A DNA stretch of 63,984 bases, counting the filler, from Octopus bimaculoides (lineage: Eukaryota): NCBI RefSeq assembly GCF_001194135.2. It is 9 parts of 9 records of this genome, joined end to end, with 100 filler letters (N's around TTAATTAATTAA, not from the genome) between each part and the next. Parts side by side here need not be neighbours in the genome. Positions count along the whole stretch, not along the records: positions 21,481 to 28,352 come from NC_069001.1; positions 28,453 to 41,220 come from NW_026386608.1; positions 41,321 to 48,895 come from NC_069005.1; positions 48,996 to 51,821 come from NC_068983.1; positions 51,922 to 56,276 come from NC_069003.1; positions 56,377 to 60,418 come from NC_069006.1; positions 60,519 to 63,984 come from NC_068982.1; 2 more parts are not named here. The stretch is one strand, 5' to 3'. Numbering within the stretch: position 1 is the first letter of the stretch; each line of letters starts with the position of its first letter. This document shows positions 909 through 63,984 of the stretch, piece after piece. The position numbers and the translations under genes are program-made. The notes under the pieces are model-generated. The model was given only the letters and a program-made list of their open reading frames with translations. It did no database searches and was not told where the DNA came from.

Positions 909-1452
909 GAAAAATCTGTCGACGGCCAGCCATGAAACTCGAATTCACATCCTAGTGAGTACGCGTCTAGTGCTTTACCATTAAGCTAAGTATATGAAAT
1001 GTAGGATATATAAATCTAGCTTTATAAGCCACTATCGTACGTTAAATTCAACTTACCTTGAAAGTCAACAAAGTTTGCTTTAGAAGCATTGAGATGTTTT
1101 GAAAAATACAGATAAGGAAATAATTTTATTCCCAAACGTAAGTTGAATTTAACGTACGATAGCGTCTTATAAAGCTAGATTTATATATCCTAAATTTGCA
1201 GAAGAATTTGTCGTTGGGTCAGTTTAGCTTACTGGTAAAGCATTTGACGCGTAATCACAGGAATGTGAGCTCGAGTCTCATGGCTGGCTGCCGACAGATT
1301 TTTCTGTAAAATATGGGTAGTTTATCCTGTTCATGTTATATTATTAGCATTATCCTGCATTTGAGAATAAAATTATTTCCTTATCTTTCAATACATCTCA
1401 ACGCTTCTAAAGCAAACTTTGTTTGTTGACTTTCAACGTAAGTTGAATTTAA
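909..1452. repeat. Nested inverted repeats (A-B-C-B'-A'-C') including a tRNA-like head
   Basis: 909-990 is the reverse complement of ~1224-1303; ~1001-1055 of ~1138-1192; ~1040-1135 of ~1361-1452 (read directly). Confidence 0.8.
1217..1289 (+). pseudogene. Degenerate tRNA-like sequence (Thr-CGT-like loop), probably a SINE head or tRNA pseudogene
   Basis: Acceptor GGTCAGT/GCTGGCT with wobbles, D-stem GCTT/AAGC, anticodon loop CGCGTAA, T-arm GTGAG-CTCGAGT-CTCAT. Conserved U33 and T54 are substituted. Confidence 0.5.
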
Positions 1453-1469
1453 CACACACACACACACAC

Positions 1470-1504
<35 letters not shown>

Positions 1505-1804
1505 CAAAATATGGGGGTTTAGTTCACAAGTGATCTAAACGATTAGGTACGCTAGTGCTGTAACGGATTACTAGGTCTCCAAGGTTGTAGCCGAGACGGT
1601 AGTTATAGAGCCATTGCAGATTCTGATATAGCAGATATATAATTGTTAAAGAGGACAACAAACGTTGAGACAAGGCAAGCATCATATCATATACATTATT
1701 ATTAGTGGAAAAAAAATTCAAAGTCTTACAGCTGTTTCTGGGATATCCCAGAGTATGAGATATTCATACGTTTCTAAAAAAACGTTTCTATAGAAGTGGT
1801 CAAA

Positions 1805-1876
1805 GACTGATCGTGGGAATCGAACCCACATCTCCTGAAAACAAGACAGGATTTCTACTATTGGATCAAACAATCC
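1805..1876 (-). pseudogene. tRNA-like relic
   Basis: Minus strand has a perfect T-arm GTGGG-TTCGATT-CCCAC, a TCCTG/CAGGA stem with a non-canonical 9-nt loop, and a partial acceptor stem. Confidence 0.35.
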
Positions 1877-2788
1877 TTCGAATTTCTCTCTCCATGTTAA
1901 AAACTTATTCTTACCAGCAGGTATTGTATATTGTTGACCGCAGAAGAATTCACAAACTTCGAGAGAACCTCGAGCTGCTACCTCGACACCATTGAATATA
2001 CATTTTATTGAAATTTTGTCCTCACCTGAGCCTCATATTAATTTGCTACTCGGCTGTAAAAGTTTTCCGGCAGAAATAACTTAACTTCAGATTTGGTTTA
2101 AGGCTGTAGATACAGAAAATGACCCTTTTCTTCACCTCAAAAATCCAATGCAAAGATAACCTACTAAAGATAGTTATTGGAACGTCAAATCTTCCAGAAT
2201 ATTGCCTTGTTTTTCTGATAGACTTCTTTAATCTTTCAGTAAATATTCATACAAATTAATTTATATACCGATACACACACACGTGTACAAACATACATTC
2301 ACGCTGATACAGACACACATGTACACGACACAACTGCTACGCAAATATTATTGCATGTCTCTTGTGTACTTTCAGCTAATCGGGAGTATTTATGGTGATT
2401 TGCTGGTTTGATTACACAGTTTGATTACACAGTTTGTCTATTCAGTCAGATAAAGCATCCGGGAGAGGAAGGATCGCTTTTGAATAGCAAGTGCATTTGA
2501 ATTAGCACTGTACGACACGATAACAGCGTCGCCTCTTAAATACAACGAACTCCATGACCCAAATAGGACACAAGCCTAGTTGCCATGCTTTGCTGCTCTT
2601 GCAAAAAGAAAAGACGGTGGACCTTGATAATGAATGAAAGACGTATAACAGGTTTTACTTATAGAAATAATACATTTCTAAATCTCTCAGAGAGATTTAT
2701 GCAGTAGTGATACGATGAAGTGGTTGTATGCTGTCAACTTAATGTGACAGTTCCCTGAAGGGAATAACACTACTGTTGGTTAGACCTA

Positions 2789-3033
2789 GGAAGCTGCACC
2801 GCTTCCTGTCGGCCTTTCCTGTGTCCTTATGTTTACAAGGGGGAGACAAGCACCTCCACCCAGCTAAGCCTGCATCCAGAGACATGTTTCTGAGACATGT
2901 TTCTGATGACGAGCAAAGACTCAAAAACATGTCCCTGGACGCAGGCTTAGCTGGTTGGAGGTGCTTGTCTCCCCCTTGTAAACATAAGGTCACAGGAAAT
3001 GTGTCAAGGCCGACAGGAAGCGGTGCAGCTTCC
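2789..3033. mobile_element. MITE with ~100-bp terminal inverted repeats and TA flanks
   Basis: GGAAGCTGCACCGCTTCCTGTCGGCC... is mirrored by ...GGCCGACAGGAAGCGGTGCAGCTTCC; TA lies on both sides. Confidence 0.7.
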
Positions 3034-3036
3034 TAG

Positions 3037-7869: not shown

Positions 7870-8810
7870 AACATTGTATGAGTTAGCAGTGAGCTCCTCA
7901 AGAAACACTCTCTTCCTGAAGATTTCCTATATAGTCCCAAACCAACTGGGCTGTCTTACCTCAGAGAAGATCTGGATGGAAAGCACCCAGCATACAAAAA
8001 AAAAAGAGACTATGCATGGGTATGTTGCCCGGAAGCTTCAAGAAGACAGTAGAATTGATACGAAGCGCAGCCTCTCTCGCACACAAGACCACTACAATAC
8101 ATCACACTTTGAAGGCTATGCGTTTGCAATCCAAGAACAGGAGATTGTCACAAAGTACTTAAGTACTTGGTGAACAAGAAAGACAGTGTTGTTCTTGTAA
8201 TCCCAAGGTGCAACCGCATGTGTAGGCTGTGTTATGTCCCTGTGGAAGACATCACACATGTGATTAGCAGCTGTCCTAAAATGTCGTCACGGTACTACCT
8301 CCCTATGCGGCACGATCTTGTCGCTAAAACAATTTACAATGCCATCCGCAAGAAAGACTGTCCTGAAATAAACTTAGAAAATCCCTCTCTTATGGAATAC
8401 ATTCATAAACATAAACTCATGGAATACTGGTGGAATATCCCACCAGTATCAAATGTAAAACTTCTGTCAAATGTAAACATAACAGGCTGGATATTGCTGC
8501 TTGGGACAGAGGGGCAAAGGTATGTACCATCATTGAGGTCAGCTGCCCTGCAGATATAAATAGCTCTTTGAAAATCGAAGTAAAAGAGGATATCCATGGA
8601 CAACTTCTTCGAAACCTCCAGCTTCTATATCCAGACTATGAATTCATATTCATATCAATAATAATTTGAGCACTAGGTTTAAACGAGAATCTGGATAAAC
8701 TGGGATTTTCAGAAAGAGAAATCGACCGGCTAATTTGTACATTACAAGTATAATTTGTGAGTGGAACAGTAAAAATATGCAAGACTTTTCTTAAGTTCCA
8801 AATGTTAATT
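7870..8810 (+). mobile_element. Frameshifted 3' fragment of an R4/Dong-like non-LTR retrotransposon (CCHC knuckle plus restriction-like endonuclease)
   Basis: Peptides AFAIQEQEIVTKY, CRLCYVPVEDITHVISSCPK, RHDLVAKTIY, KHNRLDI (NRPD-like) and IIEVSCP are spread over three frames. Confidence 0.85.
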
Positions 8811-13033: not shown

Positions 13034-13186
13034 ATGTCTGTGTTGTATTATATGAAGATATTTCATTACTGCCCCTGCTACTTCCCCTCCCCAAGCTTTT
13101 AGTCATATTGTAACATCTCTTATCCTTCACTTGCCCCGGGATGCTGGGTGTGTCTCGGCAAGTGATTGTAAAAAACATGCAGATTA

Positions 13187-13573
<387 letters not shown>

Positions 13574-13867
13574 TCATCACCATCATCATCATCATTTTAT
13601 GCCTGCTTTCCATGCTGGGATGACAGAATCAGTAGAGTATCAAACAAAAAAATACCTTCTGGTATTTGAGTCCCCTTATTGTTCAGTTACATCCCTTCAT
13701 ACTCAAGACGACCATACCTTCCTTCCTTCAGGGGCCAGTAATATAAATACCAGACAAGCAGTGCGGTCGAAATGATCAAATAAAAAAACTTGACGATGGT
13801 GCCCCAGCATGGTCGCAGTTCAATGAGTGAAACCTGTAAAAGATATTTAAGACAAAAGCAAACTTAC

Positions 13868-14089
13868 TTGGTTCATTCCTGCATTGGTAAAATAAGTACC
13901 AGCTGCCTTCGTGGGTATCACAGATGATGACTTCACAAACTGATGGCCATTCTCTTCACAGAAATAATCTAAGAATGTCTTGCGGATTCGTTTCGATGAC
14001 CATGTGGTTTTCTTGTGGGTATGGATGAGGGCCGAGTAAGTGTGGGTCCGATGGCAATGGTGACAAACTCTGGTGCCAACTTTCAACAT
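13868..14089 (-). CDS. AARS2: Mitochondrial alanyl-tRNA synthetase, first coding exon (74 codons)
   Basis: MLKVGTRV...WSSKRIRKTFLDYFCEENGHQFVKSSSVIPTKAAGTYFTNAGMNQ matches the AlaRS N-terminus, preceded by an acid-free basic leader (presequence-like). Donor CAA|GTAAGT; acceptor ccttttgtAG at 14112-14111. The exact start codon is inferred. Confidence 0.88.
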
Positions 14090-14913
14090 GATGAAACAAG
14101 CTAACAGCACCTACAAAAGGACAGTTTATTTTGAGTATTTCACCACTGTGTAGTGAGAGCATTGAAGGCTATGTCCACTTGATAGAGACACCGGGGCCAC
14201 TAAGTGACACTCTTGACAGGGTTTGAAACCTGCATGCTAGGAAAATAACTCATGAATCATTCAATGCTGCCACCACATACACTTTCAGTTGCATGATACA
14301 TATTAACAGCCTGAGTGAATGACAGAAACCTTGACTCATTGAAAATAATAGTCAAACCACCTTCAAATCACACATTAACTGGCACCCCATCAATTACAGC
14401 AATTAATGTTCCAGTTAATCTGATCAACAGAACAGCATGTTTGTGAAATTAATGTGCAAATGGCTGAGTGCTCCACAGACAATTGTATCTTAAATGTAGT
14501 TCTCAGGGAGATACAGTGTGACACAGAGTGTGACATGGTTGGCCCTTTGAAATACAGGTACAATTTGATTGCCTATACAATCACCTGTTTTTAGTACTGA
14601 ACTGTCCAGTGCCTCCGTCGAGCAGAAATAACAGCCACATCATATTCTACTAAGTTTTTTTTTTTTAATGAACACATGCGATAATGTAGTCCTGGGTGTA
14701 TTATGTCTGAATAAAAGACAGGATGGTCATAGCTGGAACGTCTTCGATCAGAGGTCAGCTGCATCAGGGCTACGCTGAGGATAAATAACAAGAGCAAGGA
14801 AGGATATATTAAATAATGTAGTCTTAGATTGACTATGATTGAATAAAAGACGGGATGGTCACATCTGGAACAGCTTTGATCATAGGTCTGTTGCATCAGG
14901 ACTCGACTAGGGC

Positions 14914-21511: not shown

Positions 21512-21672
21512 ACATGTGTGTGTGTGTGTGTGTGTGTGTCTAATATTTTGGTTAAGTATTGCAAGACTATTAACCTGATGTAGAACCCAATATATGTATG
21601 TTTCAAAATGAAGTGTTAGACGAGTATAGAGTGGTAATAAGAAAATGAGATGACAAAGGAATAAATGAAAGT

Positions 21673-22003
21673 TTATGAACTTCATTAGCCTGCAGCTGTT
21701 TCTGCTATAGTATGCAGTGCACTCATAGTCGAGTGCTTGAATAACACTTTATAGCTTCATCAGAGCCTCGAATATGATGTGCAATTTATTTGGGGAAAAA
21801 TTATATTTCTGGCTATATAGGGAACGGTATCAACATGAGAAAGTCAGTATGAATGTATATAAGAAAATTTTATACACTTTTCTTATATACATTTGTATGG
21901 ATATTTGAGGCCCTGATGAAGCTGTAAGGTGTTATCCAGGCACTCAACTATGAGTCGACTGCATCTTATGGCACAAACAGCAGTAAGAGGATGAAGTCCA
22001 TAA
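21673..22003. ncRNA. Foldback element with two divergent hammerhead-like motifs
   Basis: Minus arm: CTGATGA 21763-21757, stem II GCTATA/TATAGC, GAAAC-AGCT-GCA. Plus arm: CTGATGA 21913-21919, GCTGTAAG/CTTATGGC, CAAAC-AGCA-GTA. Confidence 0.6.
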
Positions 22004-22039
22004 GAAAATCTTTTATTCCTTTGTCATCTCTCTTTCTTT

Positions 22040-22094
<55 letters not shown>

Positions 22095-22854
22095 NNNNNN
22101 NNNNNNNNNNNNNNNNNNNNNNNNNNNNNNNNNNNNNNNNNNNNNNNNNNNNNNNNNNNNNNNNNNNNNNNNNNNNNNNNNNNNNNNNNNNNNNNNNNNN
22201 NNNNNNNNNNNNNNNNNNNNNNNNNNNNNNNNNNNNNNNNNNNNNNNNNNNNNNNNNNNNNNNNNNNNNNNNNNNNNNNNNNNNNNNNNNNNNNNNNNNN
22301 NNNNNNNNNNNNNNNNNNNNNNNNNNNNNNNNNNNNNNNNNNNNNNNNNNNNNNNNNNNNNNNNNNNNNNNNNNNNNNNNNNNNNNNNNNNNNNNNNNNN
22401 NNNNNNNNNNNNNNNNNNNNNNNNNNNNNNNNNNNNNNNNNNNNNNNNNNNNNNNNNNNNNNNNNNNNNNNNNNNNNNNNNNNNNNNNNNNNNNNNNNNN
22501 NNNNNNNNNNNNNNNNNNNNNNNNNNNNNNNNNNNNNNNNNNNNNNNNNNNNNNNNNNNNNNNNNNNNNNNNNNNNNNNNNNNNNNNNNNNNNNNNNNNN
22601 NNNNNNNNNNNNNNNNNNNNNNNNNNNNNNNNNNNNNNNNNNNNNNNNNNNNNNNNNNNNNNNNNNNNNNNNNNNNNNNNNNNNNNNNNNNNNNNNNNNN
22701 NNNNNNNNNNNNNNNNNNNNNNNNNNNNNNNNNNNNNNNNNNNNNNNNNNNNNNNNATATATATATATATAAGGATTTACTTTTTGTAATGAGATAAAAA
22801 ACCAAGGCTGTGTATAATATAGAACATTTATATATATATATATATATATATATT

Positions 22855-23070
22855 TCATCATCATCATCATTTAACATCTGTTTTCCATGCTGGCATGGGT
22901 TGGACAGTTTGACAGAAGCTGACCGAGCTGAAGGACTGTTCAGCTTCCATAGTCTGCTTTGGCATGGTTTCTATAGCCGGATGCTCTTCCTAATGCCAAC
23001 CATATTACAGAGTGTACTGGGTGCTTTTATGCATCACCGGTACAGGTGCTTTTCATGTGGTACCAGTCCT
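22855..23070 (-). mobile_element. SINE family D (RTE-type tail) copy
   Basis: CATCATCAT..TTTAACATCTGTTTTCCATGCTGGCATGGGTTGGAC...GGATGCTCTTCCTAATGCCAACC; same family at 27730 and 50433. Confidence 0.8.
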
Positions 23071-24364
23071 TACATACACACACACACACACGCATATATA
23101 TATATATCAAGAGACTATAAAAATACTCTGCTTCATACAAATATATTTACTCAGTGCACATCACAAGAGTTTTTTTTTTTTTTGTTTTTTTCAAAGCTTG
23201 GCCATACTGGAAGGGGAAATTTATTGTGACAGAGTGTTTGAAACCAGCAAGAGATCTGCAAGTAGCATGTTGAAATTGTAAGATAGTATATTGTCAGTCA
23301 TAACCATTCCAGCATTACTCTCAAACTATTCCCATTTCATATTAGTTGGTTGCTGTTGAGGACATTATTACTGTTGTTTCATTCATTTCTGTTAGCTGCA
23401 GAAGTGTCAGTTACAGGTGTTGTTTACATATTGGCATTCACACTGGATAAGAGAGAGAAACATCTCTAGCTCAAATGGTGTGAGGCAGCCTTTTTATTTC
23501 ATTCGGTGAAATTCTTCTCTTTTNNNNNNNNNNNNNNNNATAACGAATCTCTGAATAAATTTTCTTTTTGTATTCTTTTTAGCATTTTTTTCTGTAATTT
23601 TTTTTTTGATTCTATAATTTCTCTGCTTGGTGTTTTGTGAGGAGGAGCTTTCTGATAGGCAAGTCGATGGTATGCACACACGCATGCACACACACACACA
23701 CACATGCACACACGCACACAAGCACACACACTTTGGAAAAATGGACTTTTTTCCCTACTCTTTTTTCATGAAGTGAAGTTGTCAAGTTATTCTCTTCCTG
23801 AGACAACAGAACTTGGTGCATTTTGATTTCCTGCTGGTTTGGCTAAAGCTTATCATATATTTTGTTTTGGAAACTGGAAGAATTTTGATGTGTAACTGTG
23901 CATTAAAGCTAATATAACTATACATTAGGTGGGTCATACTGCTAATAAATAAATTGCTAAACAAATTCAGACATTATTACCTCCACCTTAGCAAAGGTAG
24001 AGAAGGTATTGTTTCATCATGTTTGTTTGTTTGTCTGTGGACAAGATATCTCAAGAACTTTCAGGGATGTTTGGCCTTGTGACTGGCACAAACTGATTAG
24101 ATTTGGGGTTTCATCGAGTACCTGACAAGGATTCTAGATTATTTTTCCTGTTTTTTTAACTTAATTTTTGAGAGCGGTTGGATTCATTTTTAGCAATGTC
24201 ATTTATGAGAGCAGACAAGTTTATTTCAGATATTCTCATTTTAAAAATCATCTCTGGCTAATCGTTGAGAGGACATTAGTGTTGCCTTGCACTCTCTGTG
24301 TGCTCTTGTTTATATATGAAAGAAATAAGAAAAAAACATACATGCATACATGTATACATACATA

Positions 24365-24450
24365 GGCACAGGAGTGGCTGTGTGGTAAGTAGCTTGCTTA
24401 CCAACCACATGGTTCCGGGTTCATTCCCACTGCATGGCACCTTGGGCTAC
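24365..24450 (+). mobile_element. SINE family B head
   Basis: GGCACAGGAGTGGCTGTGTGGTAAGTAGCTTGCTTACCAACCACATGGTTCCGGGTTCATTCCCACTG. Confidence 0.85.
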
Positions 24451-25669
24451 TAGTAACATGTAATCCAGTACAACCTGTCACATGGTGGGATTGTCAGTCA
24501 CTAATACAGCCATTCTATCAAGCTAGCTTGGTGAGGAGAATGATTTTGGACACTCTCCCTGCAGGATGAAAAGCAATCCAGTTAAAGGATGGAGGATTTC
24601 ATAAGAATTACTGGCCATTCAATTGAGCTCTGCTTTCCATGAGTTTCATAGCATATTTGCACCAATTGCTGCTATCAACAGCACCAAAAACGGGTGTGTG
24701 GTAATAATTAATATTATCATTATTACTCACAGTTATTTCTATCCTCTCCCCAGGCAGTTGGAAACGAGGCATTGGAATGATATTCAAACATGGCTGACTC
24801 CTGATCAACAAGGTTCACAACTAAAACAACAAATTATGGAAGAGAAAAGCCTTCTTTATAGCCAATCATTTCCATTCTTCTGTATTCAACAATCTCATCA
24901 GTTTGATAACCAGGATTACTACAGTGTGAATAGTTCCACATGTACCATTACCATTTTAAACAAGTCACTGTGTGGGATGTCCAAAGGAATTTGCTAACTC
25001 TGCTTTTTATCTAGATCATCGTGAAAAAGGAAAAGAAATGGAGGAAGAAAGTAAAACTATTTAGCTCTCATGTGAAGAATACGATGTATGATCCATAAAA
25101 TATATAAGATATATATATATATATANNNNNNNNNNNNNNNNNNNNNNNNNNNNNNNNNNNNNNNNNNNNNNNNNNNNNNNNNNNNNNNNNNNNNNNNNNN
25201 NNNNNNNNNNNNNNNNNNNNNNNNNNNNNNNNNNNNNNNNNNNNNNNNNNNNNNNNNNNNNNNNNNNNNNNNNNNNNNNNNNNNNNNNNNNNNNNNNNNN
25301 NNNNNNNNNNNNNNNNNNNNNNNNNNNNNNNNNNNNNNNNNNNNNNNNNNNNNNNNNNNNNNNNNNNNNNNNNNNNNNNNNNNNNNNNNNNNNNNNNNNN
25401 NNNNNNNNNNNNNNNNNNNNNNNNNNNNNNNNNNNNNNNNNNNNNNNNNNNNNNNNNNNNNNNNNNNNNNNNNNNNNNNNNNNNNNNNNNNNNNNNNNNN
25501 NNNNNNNNNNNNNNNNNNNNNNNNNNNNNNNNNNNNNNNNNTGATATAAATAAAATGTCAAATGTTTTAGTGCATGACTTTTGGCTCACCATGTTCGTGT
25601 GTATTTATGTGTATGTATGTGTGCGCATGTGTGTGGGTGTTTGCATATATATATATATATATCAATTTT

Positions 25670-53397: not shown

Positions 53398-53853
53398 AAT
53401 TTTCGTCACGTTGAATCTCGCCGAGGGTATGCCTGTCTGTGGAGTACTCAGTCACATGCACGTTAATTTCACGAGCAGATTGTTCCGTTGGTCGGATCTA
53501 CAGAAACAATCGTCGTCGTCGCCGACGGATTACCAGTTATACGTATAACGGTCTGCCAGGAGATTGTTTTTGTATTTTGTTTAACTCTGGGTCAACATTG
53601 ATTGAGTAAACATAAGATCAGCGACATTCCTGTCGTGACTATCCAGCCTTATTCGTTCCTACGTCGAATGCAGGAATTTCAGTTCTATATCGAACGCATC
53701 ATTTTTAAATGACGGGTCTGTGTGGTCTGTGGGAGATTGGCTGTTATTTTTAGCAGGTAGAGTAACCACCTAGATGCTCATTCGTTGACTTAAAGAGGAA
53801 AAGAAGAGGGCCAGTGGCGAGAGAAGGAAGAAATATACATAATAAATGAGTGT

Positions 53854-53899
<46 letters not shown>

Positions 53900-53968
53900 A
53901 TATGAGCTTGTATGTTTGTACTAGTATACATATATATAAATACACACACACACACACATGTATAAAGT

Positions 53969-54006
<38 letters not shown>

Positions 54007-54065
54007 TGTGTGTGCACGTGCGTAAAAGAAAGAAAGATAGATAGAATGATAGATAGACAAAAAGC

Positions 54066-54104
<39 letters not shown>

Positions 54105-54396
54105 CAGAATTGCAAAGAGGCAAAGAAAGAAAGGAGAAAAGAAGTAAAAGACAGGGAGAAGGACAACTACCAACAACAACACAACAACAACAACAATAAC
54201 AACAACAGCAACCTTCCTGGACGCGTCCTTCGTTCATTCACAGAAATATCGCTCCCGCTTATATTGCCGTCTTGATGCCAAAGTAAAAGAGAAGCTACTT
54301 TTATCAAAGACGGATTCTATATAGCAGCAGTAAATATACTCTACCCATACACACACACACATATATATACAGACACATATATACATAATTACACCA

Positions 54397-54434
<38 letters not shown>

Positions 54435-54561
54435 ATACACACACAAATACCTACAGGCGATATACTAGTATACCTAAACACAAACAACTTTCTCATACTA
54501 TAAATGTATACATAAACATATACATACATACATACATACATATATATATATACATATATAT

Positions 54562-54649
<88 letters not shown>

Positions 54650-55060
54650 GTGTATGTATATGTATATGTATATGTGTGTANNNNNNNNNNNNNNNNNNNN
54701 NNNNNNNNNNNNNNNNNNNNNNNNNNNNNNNNNNNNNNNNNNNNNNNNNNNNNNNNNNNNNNNNNNNNNNNNNNNNNNNNNNNNNNNNNNNNNNNNNNNN
54801 NNNNNNNNNNNNNNNNNNNNNNNNNNNNNNNNNNNNNNNNNNNNNNNNNNNNNNNNNNNNNNNNNNNNNNNNNNNNNNNNNNNNNNNNNNNNNNNNNNNN
54901 NNNNNNNNNNNNNNNNNNNNNNNNNNNNNNNNNNNNNNNNNNNNNNNNNNNNNNNNNNNNNNNNNNNNNNNNNNNNNNNNNNNNNNNNNNNNNNNNNNNN
55001 NNNNNNNNNNNNNNNNNNNNNNNNNNNNNNNNNNNNNNNNNNNNNNNNNNNNNNNNNNNN

Positions 55061-55121
<61 letters not shown>

Positions 55122-55447
55122 ATATATATATATACATACAAATAAATGTACGTATATGCATGTATGTATATATATAAACGTATAAATACAGGTTGTATCG
55201 TTAATGCAGATAGATGCATGCATGCGCGCATGCAGTCGTACATGCATGTATATTTATGCGTACATAAACACTTGCACAGATTCATGCTTGTAAAATGCTA
55301 TGTAAATATTTTTCTTCCCCCATACGCGAGCACTAAACATACAAATACATAGGTAGGTACGTATGTATGTATGTACGTATGTATGTATGCATGTATGTGT
55401 GTGTGTGTGTGTATGTAAATATATATATATATACACGCACACACTTG

Positions 55448-55481
<34 letters not shown>

Positions 55482-55503
55482 AACACACACTTACACACAC
55501 ATA

Positions 55504-55536
<33 letters not shown>

Positions 55537-56237
55537 TTGTTTAAACGGGGCATTTTTCATTGAGAGGAGCTAATTAAGAATTAATTGGAGATATGACAAA
55601 ATATCCCTCAAAGAAATGAGAGGCAGTGTGATGGGTGGGGGAGTTNNNNNNNNNNNNNNNNNNNNNNNNNNNNNNNNNNNNNNNNNNNNNNNNNNNNNNN
55701 NNNNNNNNNNNNNNNNNNNNNNTATATATATGCACATATACATACATGCATACATATATACATGCATGCACACACATATAAGTGCGTATAAGATATATAT
55801 GTATTTAATGTGTGTATATAACATATTTAATAGTCTGCTTACGTGTGTACATCTATGCAACTATCAATACATATGTAAATATTGGGTGGGGGTATATATA
55901 CGCACAGATATGCGTACATATAAACATACATACATACATACATACAAGCATAGAGACATGCATGCAAACAGACTGGCAGACGACGAGCCAAGGAGGGAGC
56001 CTCTAGGTGGTCGCTCGACAAGCTAGTTATGGCAGCCAAACCATTCCACAAATCAACGCGTTCCAACTTAAGAAGGAACATAAATACATGTACATTGTCT
56101 AAAGTAAGAAAAAATAAAAGCATGTGAAGGGGTGGTCACAACAGGATTGCCTGCAATCACGTTTAGTCTGGGCATGTGCAATAATAACAAGACTTATATA
56201 CACATATATATGTAGATTTTGCATGTGTGTGTATGTG

Positions 56238-56268
<31 letters not shown>

Positions 56269-56379
56269 ATATATATNNNNNNNNNNNNNNNNNNNNNNNN
56301 NNNNNNNNNNNNNNNNNNNNTTAATTAATTAANNNNNNNNNNNNNNNNNNNNNNNNNNNNNNNNNNNNNNNNNNNNAAT

Positions 56380-56550
56380 CAATTATATCAACCCCCAGTA
56401 CCCAACTGGTACTTATTTCATCGAGCCCAAAAGGATGAAAGGCAAAGCTGACTTTGGCAGGATTTGAACTCAGAATGTAAAGTTGAGAGAAATGCCGTTA
56501 AAGCCCTTTTTTTTTTTCCGACACAGTAACGATTCTGCCGGCTCACTTCC
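56380..56550 (-). mobile_element. SINE family A copy
   Basis: AACTGGTACTTATTTCATCG..AAGGATGAAAGGCAAAG..GGATTTGAACTCAGAATG. Confidence 0.8.
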
Positions 56551-57299
56551 TTCAATGATAATAATAATAATATCTTTATTTGTCACGTGGGCAAATGAAT
56601 GGGAGACTTTTACATAACTAAGTCACAGAACTGTGTGGCATTTTACAACTAGTGTGAAAAAAAAAAACAAAAAAAAAAACAATCATTATACATAATTATG
56701 ACATTGCCACTAAGCAACCAACAGACAAGCCAGCCAGACAGCCTATACACTACTATAGAACTACTATTTATAACACAAAGATATAGAGAGTGATATGATG
56801 ATGAGGATGATGATGATGACCAGTAATCTCCAACACTTCATAATGTGGAAAAAGTTGCTTGCATACACGCTGTTCTTTTGTATACTTCACAGACTTACTG
56901 CTGCTACCGCTGGTCTAACTTCTACTGCTTATACTACCAATGATGCTATTAACACTGAAACTACTACTGCTGCTGCTGCTAGTATTACTACCACTGCAAA
57001 CAACTAGTATTGTATCTGCTATTACAACTGCTGCTGTTGTCACTGCAATTCAGTAGTACCTGAATGTTACTACTAATACTAATATTAATTACTACTATCA
57101 CTCACACTCATACTATTACTGCTACAACCACACCACTGTTACTACCACTTCAACTACCAGCAGCACCACCACCACCACCGCTACTACAATCACCACCATT
57201 ACAATTACCATTACCGTGACAACAATTGCAAGAACCAATTCCATTTCTACAACTGTTACTACTATTACTATTAACACTACAACTATAAGTAATACCATT

Positions 57300-57335
<36 letters not shown>

Positions 57336-58029
57336 CACTATTACAACTACTACTACTACAAATACCACAACAACTGTAATGAAAATAATTTAGTAAAACA
57401 ATGCAATTCCAATCAAGCAAGTACAAGATAGAAAGAAAAAAAGAACAGAATAAAACAAAACATGAAACAACTGGTTATAACATAACATCCACACAGACCA
57501 GTGATGATAATGGTTGTTGTTGTTGCTGTTGTTACTATGTCAGCAATCAATAAGGAATATAATATATGGAAATTATGACAAAGGTCAATTGATAAATAAA
57601 TAATCATGAGGGAAAATAGTGGACACTTGGCAGCCTCTACATGGTTGAATTGACAGGCTGGAAACAGCAGCCAAGCTACAACTTACCACCATAGAACAGA
57701 GAGGACATATCGAATAGCGTAGTCTTGGATACACTTCCCGGAAATAAGATGAGATGATAATCGTTGGAATGCCTTGATATGCTTAGTCAAAGCTGATCTG
57801 GGACTAAACACCGATGATGACCTCTTCACAAATCAACAAGGAAGCCTTTACACAGAAGCTTGTTGTGATGGCAACAAAAACAAAACCCTGCCAATCTAAA
57901 AGAGGAGTGTAGAAAAATTCTGAGGGGTTTAGAATGCTGTTGATCATGGCTCTGCTCAATCAAGGTGGATCGGGGCTAAACAGCTACAATAACCTCTACA
58001 TACTGCAGTAGAAACGAGTTATCATCACA

Positions 58030-58900
58030 AGCACAACCACTAATATAGACTTCTTAGAAATCACACAAAACTTAGCTACCAATCTTTATAAACCATATCA
58101 GAAACCAAATGAGAGGTTAACTCATATACACACTTTTTGTCATTCACTTAGATTTCAAATATCTAGTCAAGAACCATAGTAGAATATCCAGCCTGTCATC
58201 AAATAAAAACATATTTGTTAATGCAACACTATAAAAACACAAATTCAAAGAAAAACTCACATAATACCAGAGAAGAGCAAATCAAAAACAGGCACTGCAA
58301 TTTATGGTTTACACCCCAACTCTCACTGACTTTTAAGTTACATACAGAAAAATCATTTTAGCATTAACAGATAAACATTTCCTCAGCAATATATTAGTAA
58401 AGAAATTCTTCAACAGACAAAGCCTCAGACCTAGTTACAGCCCAACCACAAACATGAAAAATATTACAGCCACACTCGAAGCCCCACTGCAAAGATAAAA
58501 TGACCTGACCACTAAATATGTCCTGCAGTGCACAGCAAGTAGAAATATATGAAACTAAAACCACATCTGCTAGGCTTAACAAGAAAAAAGATATTTTGGT
58601 ATGATGGAAAGCAAGTTCAAACAATATTACAAGCAGACTGCTTCATTCAAACATACTGACAAGAAAAGCATTATAAAATTGTCAGGTTACATCTAGAGCT
58701 TAAAAGACAGTGGCGCTCTCTTCAGTATAAAATGGTGAATACTAGAAAGACCAAAATAAAGATAAATGATGCAACATCAGCAATGAAGAAAAGAGTCTCA
58801 TCCACTGGAGAACACAAAAATCTAAGAACTACTTAAACAAGAGATCTGAAATTATCAAGAAATACAAACACTTCACAAAACACCTGTTATGCCAGTAGAA
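58030..58900 (+). mobile_element. Decayed Penelope-like element 3' half (RT C-terminus and GIY-YIG region)
   Basis: NIDFLEITQNLATNLYKPYQKPNE, LWFTPQLS, DKHF, FFNRQSLRPSYSPTTNMKNI, YFGMMESKFK, LLKQEIEIIKKYKH-like terminus; multiple stops and frameshifts. Confidence 0.75.
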
Positions 58901-60258
58901 CTTAGATTTAACTACACTAATGCCTCCAGATCAGGAACAATGACATGCCATATCACAACAGCCACAGACCTACAAGTACATCTCACACTTTGAAACTTCC
59001 TACCATGTGACTGCTTTTTTTTTCTTTCTCCCCAACTATTACAATATTTCACTCCTGATTCATTCATCTTCCCACAGATCTATTTGCCCTCACCCCATCT
59101 CACATCCATTTTATACATGTAAGATATGTCCATGTACACATACATCTGTATGTGTTATATGAACCTGTTTGTCAATGTGTGTGGAGGAAGATGGATAAAT
59201 GTCTGTGTGCACATTTTATACACATATATGTGTATATGTATGTATGTGCATGTATATATATGTGTGTGTGTGTCATGATAGATCGCTGACCACTACATTA
59301 ATATTTTTTTCTCCTTGTTTCTCTCCTTGTTTCTTTCTGCGTTACTTTCAGTTGAAGAGCGTAGGCTCGAAACATCAAAGACTTTCTCTATTCCCGAGCG
59401 TTAAACTAATACATCCATTTGTTGTTTACACCACCTGCCTTCGTCTGTTGGTTTTTTTCGTAAATTCTCCCATATATATATATATATATATATATANNNN
59501 NNNNNNNNNNNNNNNNNNNNNNNNNNNNNNNNNNNNNNNNNNNNNNNNNNNNNNNNNNNNNNNNNNNNNNNNNNNNNNNNNNNNNNNNNNNNNNNNNNNN
59601 NNNNNNNNNNNNNNNNNNNNNNNNNNNNNNNNNNNNNNNNNNNNNNNNNNNNNNNNNNNNNNNNNNNNNNNNNNNNNNNNNATATATGGTAAGGGAATAG
59701 GAATATATAATCCAGGTATTTATCTCATGAAGCACTTCTACAGATAGTAGCTATCTGAAAACTGAAAAGTGGGAAGGTGTCTTAAGATGCCACTGCACCA
59801 ATAATCTGAAAATCTAAAAGTATCAGTAAAGAATCTATCGTTTATCTGTTTCAGTCATAAGACTGTACGTTGCTGAGGTGTTGAAGAATGGAGGTAGCAA
59901 ATTGTTTATTGCTTAGTTTAAAAGTGTTTCGTTGATTTTCCACTATAAATGGTCTTGCGTCATATGGTTACCATGACAGTTACTAATTTACTTCCAAGCA
60001 CTCTGCAATTTTTCTTTCGCAAGGACATGACAGAATCAAATCCTCAGAGTGCCACAAAAAGCAATATGCTGATTGATTTTGCAATTTTGCCAACTATATT
60101 CATTCAAGCGAAATATAGGAAGAAAGAGAGTAAACTAGATGAAGGAGGAACAGCAAGAATTTGACAAGAAAATTAGCCCCATATTATCCTAATAATTAGT
60201 TTCATCCAGCTGTATCAATTAGTTTGTATCCAGCTGTGCCATCTTCCATAAATAAAGT

Positions 60259-60418
60259 GGTTAAGTGATTGGGTTAAGTGATTGGGTTAAGTGATTGGGT
60301 TAAGTGATTGGGTTAGGTGATTGGGTTAAGTGATTGGGTTAAGTGATTGGGTTAAGTGATTGGGTTAAGTGATTGGGTTAGGTGATTGGGTTAAGTGATT
60401 GGGTTAAGTGATTGGGTT
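60259..60418. repeat. 13-bp minisatellite (TTAAGTGATTGGG)n, about 12 copies, running into a gap
   Basis: Direct reading; occasional TTAGGTGATTGGG variants. Confidence 0.95.
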
Positions 60419-60535
60419 NNNNNNNNNNNNNNNNNNNNNNNNNNNNNNNNNNNNNNNNNNNNTTAATTAATTAANNNNNNNNNNNNNNNNNNNNNNNNNN
60501 NNNNNNNNNNNNNNNNNNAATAAATTTATTAGAAT

Positions 60536-60597
60536 ATTTAGCTGAAGATCAGAATAGAGTATTCTTTACTCTTAACTGTGAAACGATCGTACTAAAT
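60536..60597 (+). ncRNA. Type I hammerhead ribozyme-like motif with intact core
   Basis: AUUUAG-CUGAAGA-U-CAG..AGAGUA(UUCUU)UACUCU..CUG-U-GAAAC-GAUC-GUA-CUAAAU; 6-bp stem I and palindromic ACGAUCGU helix III. Confidence 0.7.
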
Positions 60598-61049
60598 TAA
60601 CTAAAGGCAAGTGGTTTTTACTCTTCTCTACTGTTTTTTGTTCTGTGTGTATCAAAAATATCGCTATCAATCTGGAGTAATAATTTGTAGTTTTGAAATC
60701 AGTAGTTCTTTGACTGCTATTTCTGAATTCTCAGTATGTTGGAGAAGCAGGTTACTGTCAATCCCTATATATTTATGATTATAAATGTTTTTTACCGAAA
60801 AGGTTTTTTCATACTGAGCTACCCGGCAAAATTGTTAATTATTAATTTTATTACTAATTGACGATTCCCTGCCCTGCATATCTATATTTTAATATATATA
60901 TATATATATTTGCAATCTGTGTAGCTTAAACACACACACACATGTATATACTTAACAATATGTAAAACACACCACAAATTTGCTTTATCAAAATATTTTA
61001 TCCTACCAGAATAATAATAATAATAGGCTTCTTAACCTGCTATAAACGT

Positions 61050-61700
61050 TAACTAGCCCTCTTGTATATTATAAATAAATTTTATATCACATGGAGGCAA
61101 AAGCTTAATGTTTTTTACGATTTCAGATAATCATACCCTCTCAGTTTGTTTGAAACTAATCCTACACTCGGCTCAATCTTAAAACTTAAGTATGGATTTA
61201 TACAAAATGATTTTCTTCCAAATTAAACAATTATATTAGCAGATTAGGTTATTGGATTCTTTCATGTTGTTGTTTGTCAATATAGTGGACATAGTTTTGA
61301 AACTTTCCTTTATTGGTATTTTTAGTCTTCTATTGCTGAGAAAATTTGGCTTGTGGCGAAATTGACTTTTCAAAAGAAATTTATAACAAAATAAAACCGA
61401 GTTTTTTCTTTATCTTTTCTTTTTCTAACTTTCCTTTGTACTGGTGTCCAAACCAAAACGATTTCCAATGTAGATTCAAGAATCTATTAAGAGTTCATCT
61501 ATTTAAAACGTCTTCTGATGTTATTTCACGTTCTCAGAATATCTACTTCTTTTAATTCAATATTTTTCTGTTAGCAGAAAATATAAGAGATTCTTTCCCT
61601 ACTTCAAAGTGTTGGATACACAACACTTCAAGTATTTCAAGGTGAAACACAGTATAAGTGAGTTCTTCCTAAAAGTCGATAGATAAATACATGTATAAAT
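61050..61700 (-). mobile_element. Very decayed Penelope-like relic (tentative)
   Basis: Weak PLE-like peptides on the minus strand (GRTHLY, IKIPIKESFKTM, SANII); many stops. Confidence 0.3.
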
Positions 61701-62329
61701 AGATAAATAACATTACTTAAAGTGTTTGGTCAATAACTAAAGAAAACATCTCAATAGTTGCTCTCTTTGCTAAGATCGAAGTCAATTGATTACGTATTAA
61801 ATTTTAATTCAGCCCTCTTTAATCTGAATACCCAGCCGTGAAGTATTTGAATTACGTTATATATTGAAGTAATTCTATAAATTCATTATTTATGAAGTTA
61901 TTAGATTTTGTTTGCGATTCGGTGGAATGTCTGAAGAAAATTCTAAACAAATAATTGTCGTTTGAAATATATCTCAAACAAGTAGCAGTACCTGGGTTTG
62001 CCCGAGTTTATTAAAAAAAACAAAATATAGCACCGCGAATTTACCATATTTTGCATAAATTGTCTTTAAGAGATACTGAGAAGCATCAGTTTCTTAAAGA
62101 ATGTTGATTCCTTCATATCTGTTCCATCTGAGCAATTCGAAAGATAGTTCAGACTAAGTTTCATAAAATTGCGCAAAAAAATAAACAACCAAAGAATCCA
62201 AACTAAAATTCTGCCCGCATATTCTTTTTCTGGAAAAACACACTTTAAATGAATTATTTTTCTAATTGGTATCTTCCCGCAATGTCTATTGTGGTGCTTA
62301 ACATTTCAGAAAAATGATCTGCTTCATAG

Positions 62330-62507
62330 GCGCAGGCGTGACTGTGTGGTAAAATGTTTAATTCCCACTAATACGGCTCCGGGTACAGTTCCACTGTGTG
62401 GCACATTGGGCATGTGTCTTCTATTATAGCCCCAGGCTCGACCAAAGCATTGCGAGTATATTTGGTGGCTAGAAACTGAAAGAAGTCTGTCGTGTGTGTG
62501 TGTGTGA

Positions 62508-62543
<36 letters not shown>

Positions 62544-62746
62544 TTTTATTTGTTTCAGTCATGTGACTGCGGCCATGCTGGAGCACCGCACCGCCTTTAG
62601 CCGAGCAAATCGACCCCAGGACTTATTCTTTGTAAGCCTAGTACTTATTCTATCTGGTATCTTTTGCCGAACTGCTAAGTTACGGGGACGTAAACACACG
62701 ACCATCGGTTGTCAAGTGATGGTAGGGGGAAAACACAGACACACAA

Positions 62747-62826
<80 letters not shown>

Positions 62827-62988
62827 GAGGGCTTCTTGCAGTTTCCGCCTACCAAGTCCACTCACAAGGGTTTGGTAGGCCCGAGGCTATAGTAGAAGAC
62901 ACTTACCCAAGGTACCACGCAGTGGGACTGAACCCGGAGACATGTGGGTGGTAAGCAAGCTACTTACCGCACAGCCTCTCCTGCGCCT
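62330..62988. mobile_element. SINE family B (+, 62330-62750) and an inverted family B head (-, 62824-62988) around (CA)n
   Basis: GGCGCAGGCGTGACTGTGTGGTAA... and ...TTACCGCACAGCCTCTCCTGCGCC. Confidence 0.85.
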
Positions 62989-63005
62989 TTTGCATATATA
63001 TACAA

Positions 63006-63372
63006 AAAACTAGTTTAAAATAATGGTCATTACATATAATTCCTTTATTTGAGCAAATTTGGCTCACAGCTGTTTCCAGTAATCATTATAGGTACATTGC
63101 TGATAGGTTTACTCAAGTGGTCTGTTGATCAAGTGATGAAAACTGAACGACTTAAGAAAATTAATGCTACTTTCGTCAGCCATTTCTGGATATAGTTCTG
63201 ACGAAAGTAGCATTAATTTTCTTAGGTCGTTCAATTTGCTTCAATTGTTCAATAGACCAATTGAGGAAACCTATCATTATTTGTACCTATAATAACTCCT
63301 GGAAACAGTTGTAAGCTAAATTTTCTCAAATAAAGGAATTATATGTAATGACTATTATCTTTAACTTGTTTC
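63006..63372. ncRNA. Foldback element with two back-to-back hammerhead-like motifs
   Basis: Plus arm: TAGTT-CTGACGA (63198-63204)...GAAAC (63302-63306)-AGTT-GTA-AGCTA. Minus arm: CTGACGA (63179-63173)...GAAAC (63076-63072)-AGCT-GTG. Confidence 0.7.
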
Positions 63373-63984
63373 TTATATATCACTCTGTGAAAAAACCAGT
63401 TTTTCTGGAGCCCATCCACGAATTTACAATATAGAATTGTGATGATCCATGACCTGGGATCCGACCAAAGATTACCTGAAGTTCTTCACCAATCTAAGTA
63501 ATATTGTTAGCCTAGTGTGCCAAGAGAGAGAGAGAGCTTATGAAATATTTTGCCCGGATCGATGATCCCTCATTATTTGTTCTGTTACACACACACACAT
63601 ATATATACCGGAAGAAATCCCTAATTACCTCCCCCTATCTAGAACTCTTCTTTTTCAGACTGGAGCGAACATGTTACAATGAAGTAGAGAAATTTGAAAA
63701 GACAACACGAAACCGGTTATTTCTCAAAATACAATGTTTATATACCAAAAAGATTTTATAACGTATTTCTAACATTTTTCTGACATAATTTAATTATATA
63801 CTTAAACCATGTAACACAAGCCTTCTATAGTTTTTTCACTCTTATTATCTTATATATATATATCCCCTCTCTCTCACTCTCTTTCTCTTCCTTTCTTTCT
63901 CCCCCCCCATACCCCTCTTCCCTCTCTCTCACTCTCTTTCTCTTCCTCTCTTTCTCTTCCTCTCTTTCTCTTCCTCTCTTTCTC

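What the first reader, a model, noticed from the sequence alone, without database searches (positions are those of the whole stretch)
21673..63372. Recurrent architecture: unrelated foldback elements each carrying two outward-facing hammerheads
The elements at 21673-22003, 26501-26826 and 63006-63372 share no obvious primary sequence. They share one design: ~330-370 bp inverted repeats whose arms each read CUGANGA - long stem II - GAAAC - 4-nt AGCU-like palindromic loop - GUA, one on each strand. Hammerheads in Penelope-like element termini and inverted PLE repeats are established, and PLE ORF relics occur in this window. A family of short non-autonomous double-hammerhead foldbacks may be poorly described in this lineage; its novelty is unverified.
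Basis: partly seen in the sequence, partly recalled or inferred. Interest (0 to 1): 0.75.

Follow-up and report, generated by a model that had tools for sequence, protein, structure and literature searches.

The report
Back-to-back Penelope retrotransposon end stubs
The three mirror-image repeats are real, but they are decayed back-to-back end pieces of Penelope-type jumping genes, likely formed separately at each insertion; this is a known arrangement, and the self-cutting RNA motif they carry is mostly damaged and predicted to be trapped in the hairpin.

Summary
The three inverted repeats exist and are unrelated apart from a type I hammerhead motif. Only 1 of the 6 arms in the window keeps a full catalytic core. 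Each arm belongs to a dispersed family in a probably octopod genome. Family E3 leads into a decayed Hydra-clade Penelope-like element (RT plus C-terminal endonuclease); E1 leads into a homologous ORF start; no ORF was found for E2. Of 147 distinct loci, 58 are head-to-head pairs with scattered junctions, and none shares a junction convincingly. Outside the foldback-query samples only 3 of 27 pairs span both hammerheads. 51 of 58 pairs carry a 3' tail on exactly one arm, none on both. These are therefore likely one-off 5'-inversion products of Penelope insertion, not a propagating double-hammerhead family. Opposite-strand hammerhead pairs and inverted pLTRs with a one-sided tail are in print (PMC4209133, PMC8557442, PMC3846280). 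This scan found the same before on other DNA. What is left: unusually long stem II (54-96 nt), long tails (100-205 nt), and a strict one-tail rule that bears on how these elements insert.

The parts
21541..21865 (-). E1 left arm: pLTR copy with one-sided tail (about 21541-21640). Hammerhead C3 at 21763, cleavage position 21691, triplet decayed to GCA
21866..21900 (.). E1 inversion junction, 35 nt, holding a short forward piece of the same element
21901..22038 (+). E1 right arm, 5'-truncated at -12, ending at the first (tail-less) 3' end next to (GT)n/(TA)n. C3 at 21913, cleavage position 21985, GAAAC decayed to CAAAC
26448..26651 (-). E2 left arm without tail. C3 at 26602, cleavage position 26525, core decayed to CUGAAAA
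26675..27090 (+). E2 right arm with tail (about 26925-27090). C3 at 26713, cleavage position 26805, core decayed to CUAAAGA
62988..63194 (-). E3 left arm without tail (outer few bases are TA-rich flank). C3 at 63179, cleavage position 63065, triplet GUG
63189..63585 (+). E3 right arm with tail (about 63380-63585); in other copies this tail continues into a Hydra-type PLE ORF. C3 at 63198, cleavage position 63313; the only complete core in the window
58015..58892 (+). Decayed PLE ORF relic (RT thumb to endonuclease). Separate stretch of the pack; not linked to E1-E3
   Evidence: (tblastn with intact homologues, best E 4e-15)

Best explanation
Each foldback is a head-to-head pair of 5'-truncated terminal repeats (pLTRs) of a Penelope-like retrotransposon (Hydra clade for E3, likely also for E1 and E2), likely made anew during one insertion into a microsatellite and decaying since. 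SHOWN: the arms are members of dispersed families; E3 and E1 tails run into PLE ORFs; junctions vary from locus to locus; 3' ends cluster at two fixed points per family; no pair has two tails. INFERRED: the element's enzyme nicked both target strands and primed two cDNAs, one from the first reverse-transcription start and one from the second (which adds the tail); both stopped early and were joined in the middle, often at short microhomologies or palindromes. The hammerhead is a passenger of the pLTR. PREDICTED: a transcript through a foldback holds one hammerhead plus its complement and folds as a long hairpin, so it would not cleave.
For: Families: 2003, 189 and 1293 first-look candidates, 40 scored each. 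E3 tail directly upstream of an RT ORF in L117/L146, L118/L147 and L121/L148. L148 shows inverted pLTR, ORF, 3' UTR and tail in one insertion. Hydra motifs RWK, DKT, CxCX5C, CxxC and CxH are in these ORFs (against section 11 of PMC8557442). E1 tail runs into residues 1-37 and 70-109 of the same protein type (L008, E 8e-6 in a 9-locus database; 7 of 9 loci hit). Architecture of 147 distinct loci from 175 fetched: 58 pairs, 86 without a head-to-head partner, 3 dropped as small upstream inversions. 5' ends range from -158 to +105 (E1), -64 to +264 (E2), -804 to +215 (E3). Tails: one in 51 pairs, none in 7, two in 0; P about 0.001 in 35 pairs not selected for tail and about 2e-5 in 22 tail-selected pairs. 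Arms of a pair diverge largely independently and share few derived changes. Hairpin beats the forced hammerhead fold by about 118 kcal/mol in window E3. Literature: inverted 5'-truncated copy with one-sided tail (PMC8557442, PMC3846280); opposite-strand hammerhead pairs 100-700 bp apart (PMC4209133); Penelope-13_HM listed with a hammerhead on both strands; both strands cut and extended, with two RT start sites matching the tail, in vitro (PMC11167929).
Against: No ORF was found for E2, and only an ORF start, no RT core, for E1, so their clade is inferred. [quoted passage not shown] No clean target-site duplication was found; flanks are mostly microsatellites. Only 147 loci of several thousand candidates were examined, chosen by best score. 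Six of 636 junction comparisons fell within 3 nt on both arms; five differ in spacer length by 11-49 nt, and one (L064/L070) differs by 1-2 nt with the tail on a different arm. E2 copies show no covariation beyond shuffles, so the hammerhead rests on core sequence, folding and cross-family agreement.
Confidence: 0.88

Rival explanations
1. Same origin, different inversion mechanism: the head-to-head pair arises by self-priming or template switching on one (possibly antisense) template at a palindrome, not by priming from both target strands.
For: Proposed for Adineta Penelope from palindromes at junctions (PMC3846280). Several E3 junctions sit at or near an 8-bp palindrome about 20 nt upstream of the core (L066, L075, L076). 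Arms of a pair share more derived changes than control arms in 13 of 16 E3 pairs.
Against: Most junctions are not at that palindrome and many have unequal arms or filler bases. The E3 clustering comes from a sample picked for likeness to the window copy. The excess of shared changes is small in E1 and E2 (6 of 12, 6 of 11).
Confidence: 0.3
2. E1 and E2 spread mainly as short non-autonomous single-arm units (retrozyme- or SINE-like PLE derivatives) mobilised in trans; foldbacks still form at insertion. Compatible with the best explanation.
For: E1 and E2 shared sequence stops about 190-230 nt upstream of the core at microsatellites. Only 11 candidates hold the E1 ORF start against 2003 for the arm. 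L215, L219 and L220 join an ORF start straight to another arm. No E2 ORF was found.
Against: Strong 5' truncation alone gives the same picture, as E3 shows, where the parent is autonomous and its 3' UTR also holds a microsatellite. No tandem arrays of whole hammerhead units were seen among the 147 loci, and no head-to-tail joints in RNA reads of E1 or E3.
Confidence: 0.25
3. The foldbacks are a self-propagating non-autonomous family, viroid-like in having one hammerhead per polarity, copied as whole units.
For: Three unrelated families give similar 330-370 bp foldbacks; 22 of 58 pairs span both hammerheads; E3 junctions cluster at -9 to -22 in the foldback-query sample.
Against: No convincingly shared junction; 36 of 58 pairs lack at least one hammerhead; arms decay independently; 5 of 6 window cores are broken; the hairpin is predicted to sequester the ribozyme; no read pile-up at the cleavage site and no circular joint in three RNA runs.
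Confidence: 0.04
4. The foldbacks are MITEs of a DNA transposon and the hammerhead likeness is chance.
For: Short, non-coding, inverted arms, TA-rich flanks.
Against: Most copies are single arms; ends are asymmetric; tails lead into RT ORFs; E2 and E3 majority sequences fold freely into the three-way junction.
Confidence: 0.01

Closest known systems
Hydra clade of C-terminal EN+ Penelope-like elements (Craig et al. 2021, PMC8557442), including Penelope-13_HM and Hydra-1_Obim
   Same: RWK, DKT, CxCX5C, CxxC and CxH motifs; (TA)n targets; hammerhead in the 3' region with an unpaired or mismatched base on each side of stem II; 5'-truncated inverted copy giving hammerheads on both strands (Penelope-13_HM).
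   Different: Span between A9 and G12 is 54, 68 and 96 nt here against 12-26 nt in the published Hydra table (my count). Tails are about 100-205 nt against 30-40. The E3 parent has an Asn-rich insert and a 3' UTR of about 1 kb. By eye it is not Hydra-1_Obim (different ORF start and hammerhead).
Dual min-HHRs on opposite strands in Schistosoma mansoni (Cervera and de la Pena 2014, PMC4209133)
   Same: Two hammerheads 100-700 bp apart on opposite strands, most copies solitary, attributed to truncated PLEs; short stem I, long stem II, palindromic stem III.
   Different: Other host and PLE family; stem II far longer here; junctions and tails were not analysed in the parts I read.
Inverted pLTR insertions of Adineta vaga Penelope (Pen2a_Av and others, PMC3846280) and Anolis Poseidon PAc (PMC11167929)
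   Same: Head-to-head inverted pLTR, tail on one arm that reaches into the ORF start, two RT start sites, AT-rich targets, Asn-rich inserts.
   Different: Penelope/Poseidon clade, short tails, clear TSDs in Adineta; in PAc the ORF starts inside the hammerhead, here 100-250 nt downstream.
Animal non-LTR retrozymes (PMC7229834; bioRxiv 10.64898/2026.07.22.740005)
   Same: Short, non-coding, type I hammerhead, PLE-derived.
   Different: Retrozymes are head-to-tail tandem repeats with abundant circular RNA; these are solitary or head-to-head, low in RNA, with no circular joint seen.

Membership tests
EN+ Penelope-like element | Single ORF with PLE-type RT and C-terminal GIY-YIG-type endonuclease linked to the terminal repeat | tested here: met
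   E3: L146 and L148 align along intact ~700-aa homologues from N-terminus to endonuclease. Pfam gave no RT or GIY-YIG hit for these pieces or for 8 intact homologues; identity rests on likeness to the Hydra alignments.
EN+ Penelope-like element | Same ORF link for E1 and E2 | tested here: inconclusive
   E1: ORF start only. E2: none found.
EN+ Penelope-like element | 5' truncation, head-to-head inverted copy, tail at one end only | tested here: met
   All three families: 58 pairs, 51 with one tail, 0 with two.
EN+ Penelope-like element | Target-site duplication | tested here: inconclusive
   61 called pairs checked; flanks mostly microsatellite, no clean TSD.
Hydra clade | RWK and DKT motifs, CxCX5C linker, CxxC and CxH around the endonuclease end, (TA)n insertion | tested here: met
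   Seen in L146/L148 translations against section 11 of PMC8557442. E3 only.
Hydra clade | Placement in an RT phylogeny with published Hydra, Neptune and Nematis proteins | not tested
   Published proteins were visible only as supplement text; no tree was built.
Type I PLE hammerhead ribozyme | Core CUGANGA, GAAA, NUH with stems I-III | tested here: met
   Majority sequences of E2 and E3 meet it and fold into the junction unconstrained. E1 majority is CCGAUGA (U4C) and needs 4.7 kcal/mol forcing. Strict core intact in 13 of 55, 14 of 37 and 25 of 52 arms.
Type I PLE hammerhead ribozyme | Covariation in stems | tested here: not met
   E2, 36 arms: 87.4% of cells paired, 3 pairs with two-sided change, no measure above shuffles. 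Expected for neutrally decaying copies of one source. E1 and E3 not run.
Type I PLE hammerhead ribozyme | Self-cleavage | not testable with these tools
   RNA reads show no pile-up of ends at the predicted site, but fragmented RNA-seq is a weak test.
Non-LTR retrozyme | Head-to-tail tandem units each with a hammerhead; abundant circular RNA | tested here: not met
   No arrays in 147 loci. 221-399 reads per 11.5-12.9 million records, both directions, no same-strand backward joint (E1 and E3 only).
Propagating foldback or MITE family | Copies share ends and internal junction | tested here: not met
   Junctions scattered; 0 convincing matches in 636 comparisons.

The most novel reading that the evidence does not exclude
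A subset of these foldbacks, for example E3 pairs joined 9-22 nt upstream of the core, was transcribed and re-inserted whole, making a non-autonomous, viroid-like animal element with one long-stem hammerhead per polarity. My sample of 147 loci out of several thousand candidates does not exclude a small such subfamily.
Probability: 0.04. Interest if true: 0.7.

Novelty: new member of a known kind. Interest (0 to 1): 0.2.

Why it matters
As a discovery it matters little: the arrangement is published and the copies are old. Two by-products have some use. First, the one-tail rule (51 of 58 pairs with one tail, none with two) is a countable genomic footprint that any model of Penelope insertion must explain, and the published in vitro system could test it. 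Second, hammerheads with 54-96 nt in stem II are missed by Rfam here and exceed the 7-17 nt spacer of one published core search, so such ribozymes are probably undercounted in these genomes.

Tried and rejected
Rfam scans found no hammerhead. Pfam found nothing for 15 of 16 window ORFs, for the PLE pieces, or of relevance for intact homologues. I first filed the parent as Neptune/Nematis from recall; the clade description and alignments of PMC8557442 show Hydra. Search for an E2 ORF: tail query, upstream query and a tail-end pattern gave none; RT pieces in L236 and L245 lie near a related fourth family and are not joined to it. A protein search for the E1 ORF body used the wrong frame and returned only itself. 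TSD search inconclusive. Covariation negative for E2. The look-up of sequencing runs: no RNA holder listed; three raw-read runs were laid instead. One five-molecule start at L088:1665 in one run lies upstream of the core, about 125 nt from the cleavage site, and was not taken as evidence. Luense et al. 2016/17 on PLE hammerhead variants is not held; I saw only its citation, and it may already cover long stem II variants. The E1 core CUGAUGA seen in the window is probably not ancestral: among 42 indel-free of 55 copies, CCG 15, CTG 16, CCA 8, other 3, like a control CpG, and RNA reads show C>T and G>A about equally there (48 and 49 of 118 in X1). A true CTG subfamily is not excluded.
Full report
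OBSERVATION. The window is a pack of nine stretches of a 2.34-Gb genome. The best protein homologue is from Argonauta, so the host is probably an octopod; this is inference. The three inverted repeats are there. They do not align with each other better than shuffled controls, and the family references share only 15-18 nt around the GAAAC-AGCT-GTA segment. Projected on the family references, five of six arms have a broken core and only E3+ is complete.

FAMILIES. Searches of the own genome gave 2003, 189 and 1293 first-look candidates, 40 scored each. Copies match the family references at roughly 75-95%. Majority sequences read as type I hammerheads: 3-5 bp stem I, CYGANGA, one extra base, a long stem II, one extra purine, GAAAC, a palindromic AGCU and GUA. 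E2 and E3 fold into the three-way junction without constraint; E1 does not and needs 4.7 kcal/mol of forcing. The strict core is intact in 13 of 55, 14 of 37 and 25 of 52 arms. E2 shows no covariation above shuffles. The E1 source probably read CCGAUGA, with the window's CUGAUGA arising by CpG decay; a U4C variant is reported to lower activity in vitro (PMC3088659, passages).

PARENT ELEMENTS. Walking upstream from E3 led to RT sequence. In L117/L146, L118/L147 and L121/L148 the E3 tail runs directly into an ORF. L148 holds an inverted pLTR, a decayed ORF from N-terminus through RT, an Asn-rich insert, linker and endonuclease, a 3' UTR that lacks the hammerhead part, and a final tail. The ORFs are broken by stops, frameshifts and insertions. 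They carry RWK, DKT, CxCX5C, CxxC and CxH, the diagnostic motifs of the Hydra clade (PMC8557442 section 11; alignments in its supplement). The lead to Hydra came from earlier finding e1-10346801 and replaced my recalled label Neptune/Nematis. The E1 tail runs into a homologous ORF start in 7 of 9 loci tested, best E 8e-6 in that small database; no RT core was linked. No ORF was found for E2. A separate PLE relic lies at window 58015-58892.

ARCHITECTURE. Six samples (foldback queries for all three families, tail queries for E1 and E2, an upstream query for E3) gave 175 loci, 147 distinct. 61 were called head-to-head pairs; 3 were dropped as small upstream inversions (L014, L024, L053), leaving 58; 86 have no such partner. 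5' truncation points are scattered over hundreds of bases while 3' ends cluster at two points per family. Both arms span the hammerhead in 22 pairs, one in 24, neither in 12. In the 79 loci not found with a foldback query, only 3 of 27 pairs span both. Of 636 within-family junction comparisons, 6 fell within 3 nt on both arms; 5 differ in spacer length, and L064/L070 differ by 1-2 nt and in which arm bears the tail. Tails: 51 pairs have one, 7 none, 0 two; under independence P is about 0.001 for the 35 pairs not selected for tail and about 2e-5 for 22 tail-selected pairs. The two arms of a pair have mostly diverged independently, with a small excess of shared changes in E3 (13 of 16 pairs above control) and little in E1 and E2 (39 pairs with enough overlap). 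No clean TSD was seen. All samples are best-scoring subsets, so the proportions are not genome-wide rates.

MECHANISM. Shown: the above. Inferred: two cDNAs primed from the two nicked strands of a microsatellite target, one from each RT start site, truncated and joined centrally. This fits the in vitro Poseidon data, where both strands are cut and extended and the tail lies between two start sites, but that study saw no strand difference in start site (PMC11167929, parts 1-2 of 4). Self-priming at palindromes (PMC3846280, passages) remains a live rival. Predicted: each transcript strand of a foldback has one hammerhead and its complement; in window E3 the hairpin is -204 against -87 kcal/mol for the forced ribozyme fold. 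The two hammerheads are never on one RNA strand, so they cannot be the tandem dimer that such ribozymes are thought to need (PMC4209133, parts 1-2 of 4; PMC6765202, passages).

RNA. No RNA holder was listed. Three raw-read runs (about 6% of each, one study) laid on one E3 and one E1 copy at 80-82% likeness gave 221-399 reads per 11.5-12.9 million records, mostly under 90% alike, in both directions, with no pile-up at the cleavage site and only opposite-strand joints. This fits read-through of scattered copies and is a weak test of cleavage.

WHAT IS KNOWN. Inverted 5'-truncated copies with a one-sided 30-40 bp tail are typical of EN+ PLEs (PMC8557442, passages). Opposite-strand hammerhead pairs 100-700 bp apart were reported in 2014. 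Penelope-13_HM, a Hydra element, is tabulated with a hammerhead on each strand (supplement part 2 of 59). Retrozymes are tandem, not head-to-head (bioRxiv 10.64898/2026.07.22.740005, part 1 of 5 and passages, supplements not available; PMC7229834, passages). Penelope-like elements are annotated in Octopus vulgaris, with no mention of ribozymes in the main text (PMC13282606, passages). Searches for octopus plus hammerhead ribozyme plus Penelope, and for Penelope-like plus twin priming, inverted repeat and head-to-head, returned no paper on these families or on the one-tail count (listings only, except the papers named); subscription papers, Repbase and Luense et al. were not seen. Earlier notes of this scan reached the same reading on other genomes; they are not independent support.

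VERDICT. Real but ordinary: new members of a known kind, with an unusually long stem II and long tails. Interest 0.2.

Noticed in passing
window 2790-3035: Near-perfect hairpin with arms of about 110 bp (94% complementary over 80 nt) and a CTGATGA in the loop but no matching GAAAC; looks MITE-like. Label is a guess.
   Followed up: no
window 1499-2035 (-): Single decayed arm of a further family: GAAAC-AGCT-GTA at 1738-1727 and a tail that matches a piece in L223 at 82% over 129 nt.
   Followed up: partly
L225-L251 (for example L241, L250): A fourth hammerhead-bearing family distantly related to E2, with CUGAUGA and a GUC or GUA triplet and a similar tail.
   Followed up: partly
L088:850-1000, L100:900-1050, L117:1030-1130: The far-upstream E3 region reads as Asn-rich codons on the opposite strand, recalling the inverted N-rich segments described for Adineta Pen2a.
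   Followed up: no
L240:2024-2736: An E1-type foldback sits inside an E2 arm, a nested insertion of one family in another.
   Followed up: no
L040, L059, L051, L162: E2 has a roughly 50-60 nt unit just upstream of the hammerhead that is tandemly repeated a variable number of times.
   Followed up: no
window 52880-53466: Mariner-type transposase relic (HTH_48, E 1e-17).
   Followed up: no
window 13184-14110 (-): Two exons that look like the N-terminus of an alanyl-tRNA synthetase (label recalled, not tested).
   Followed up: no
window 8113-8669 (+): Fragment resembling the zinc-knuckle and nuclease end of a non-LTR retrotransposon (label recalled; no Pfam hit).
   Followed up: no
window 1218-1289 (+): Rfam tRNA match above gathering score (33.9 bits), perhaps the head of a tRNA-derived SINE.
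   Followed up: no
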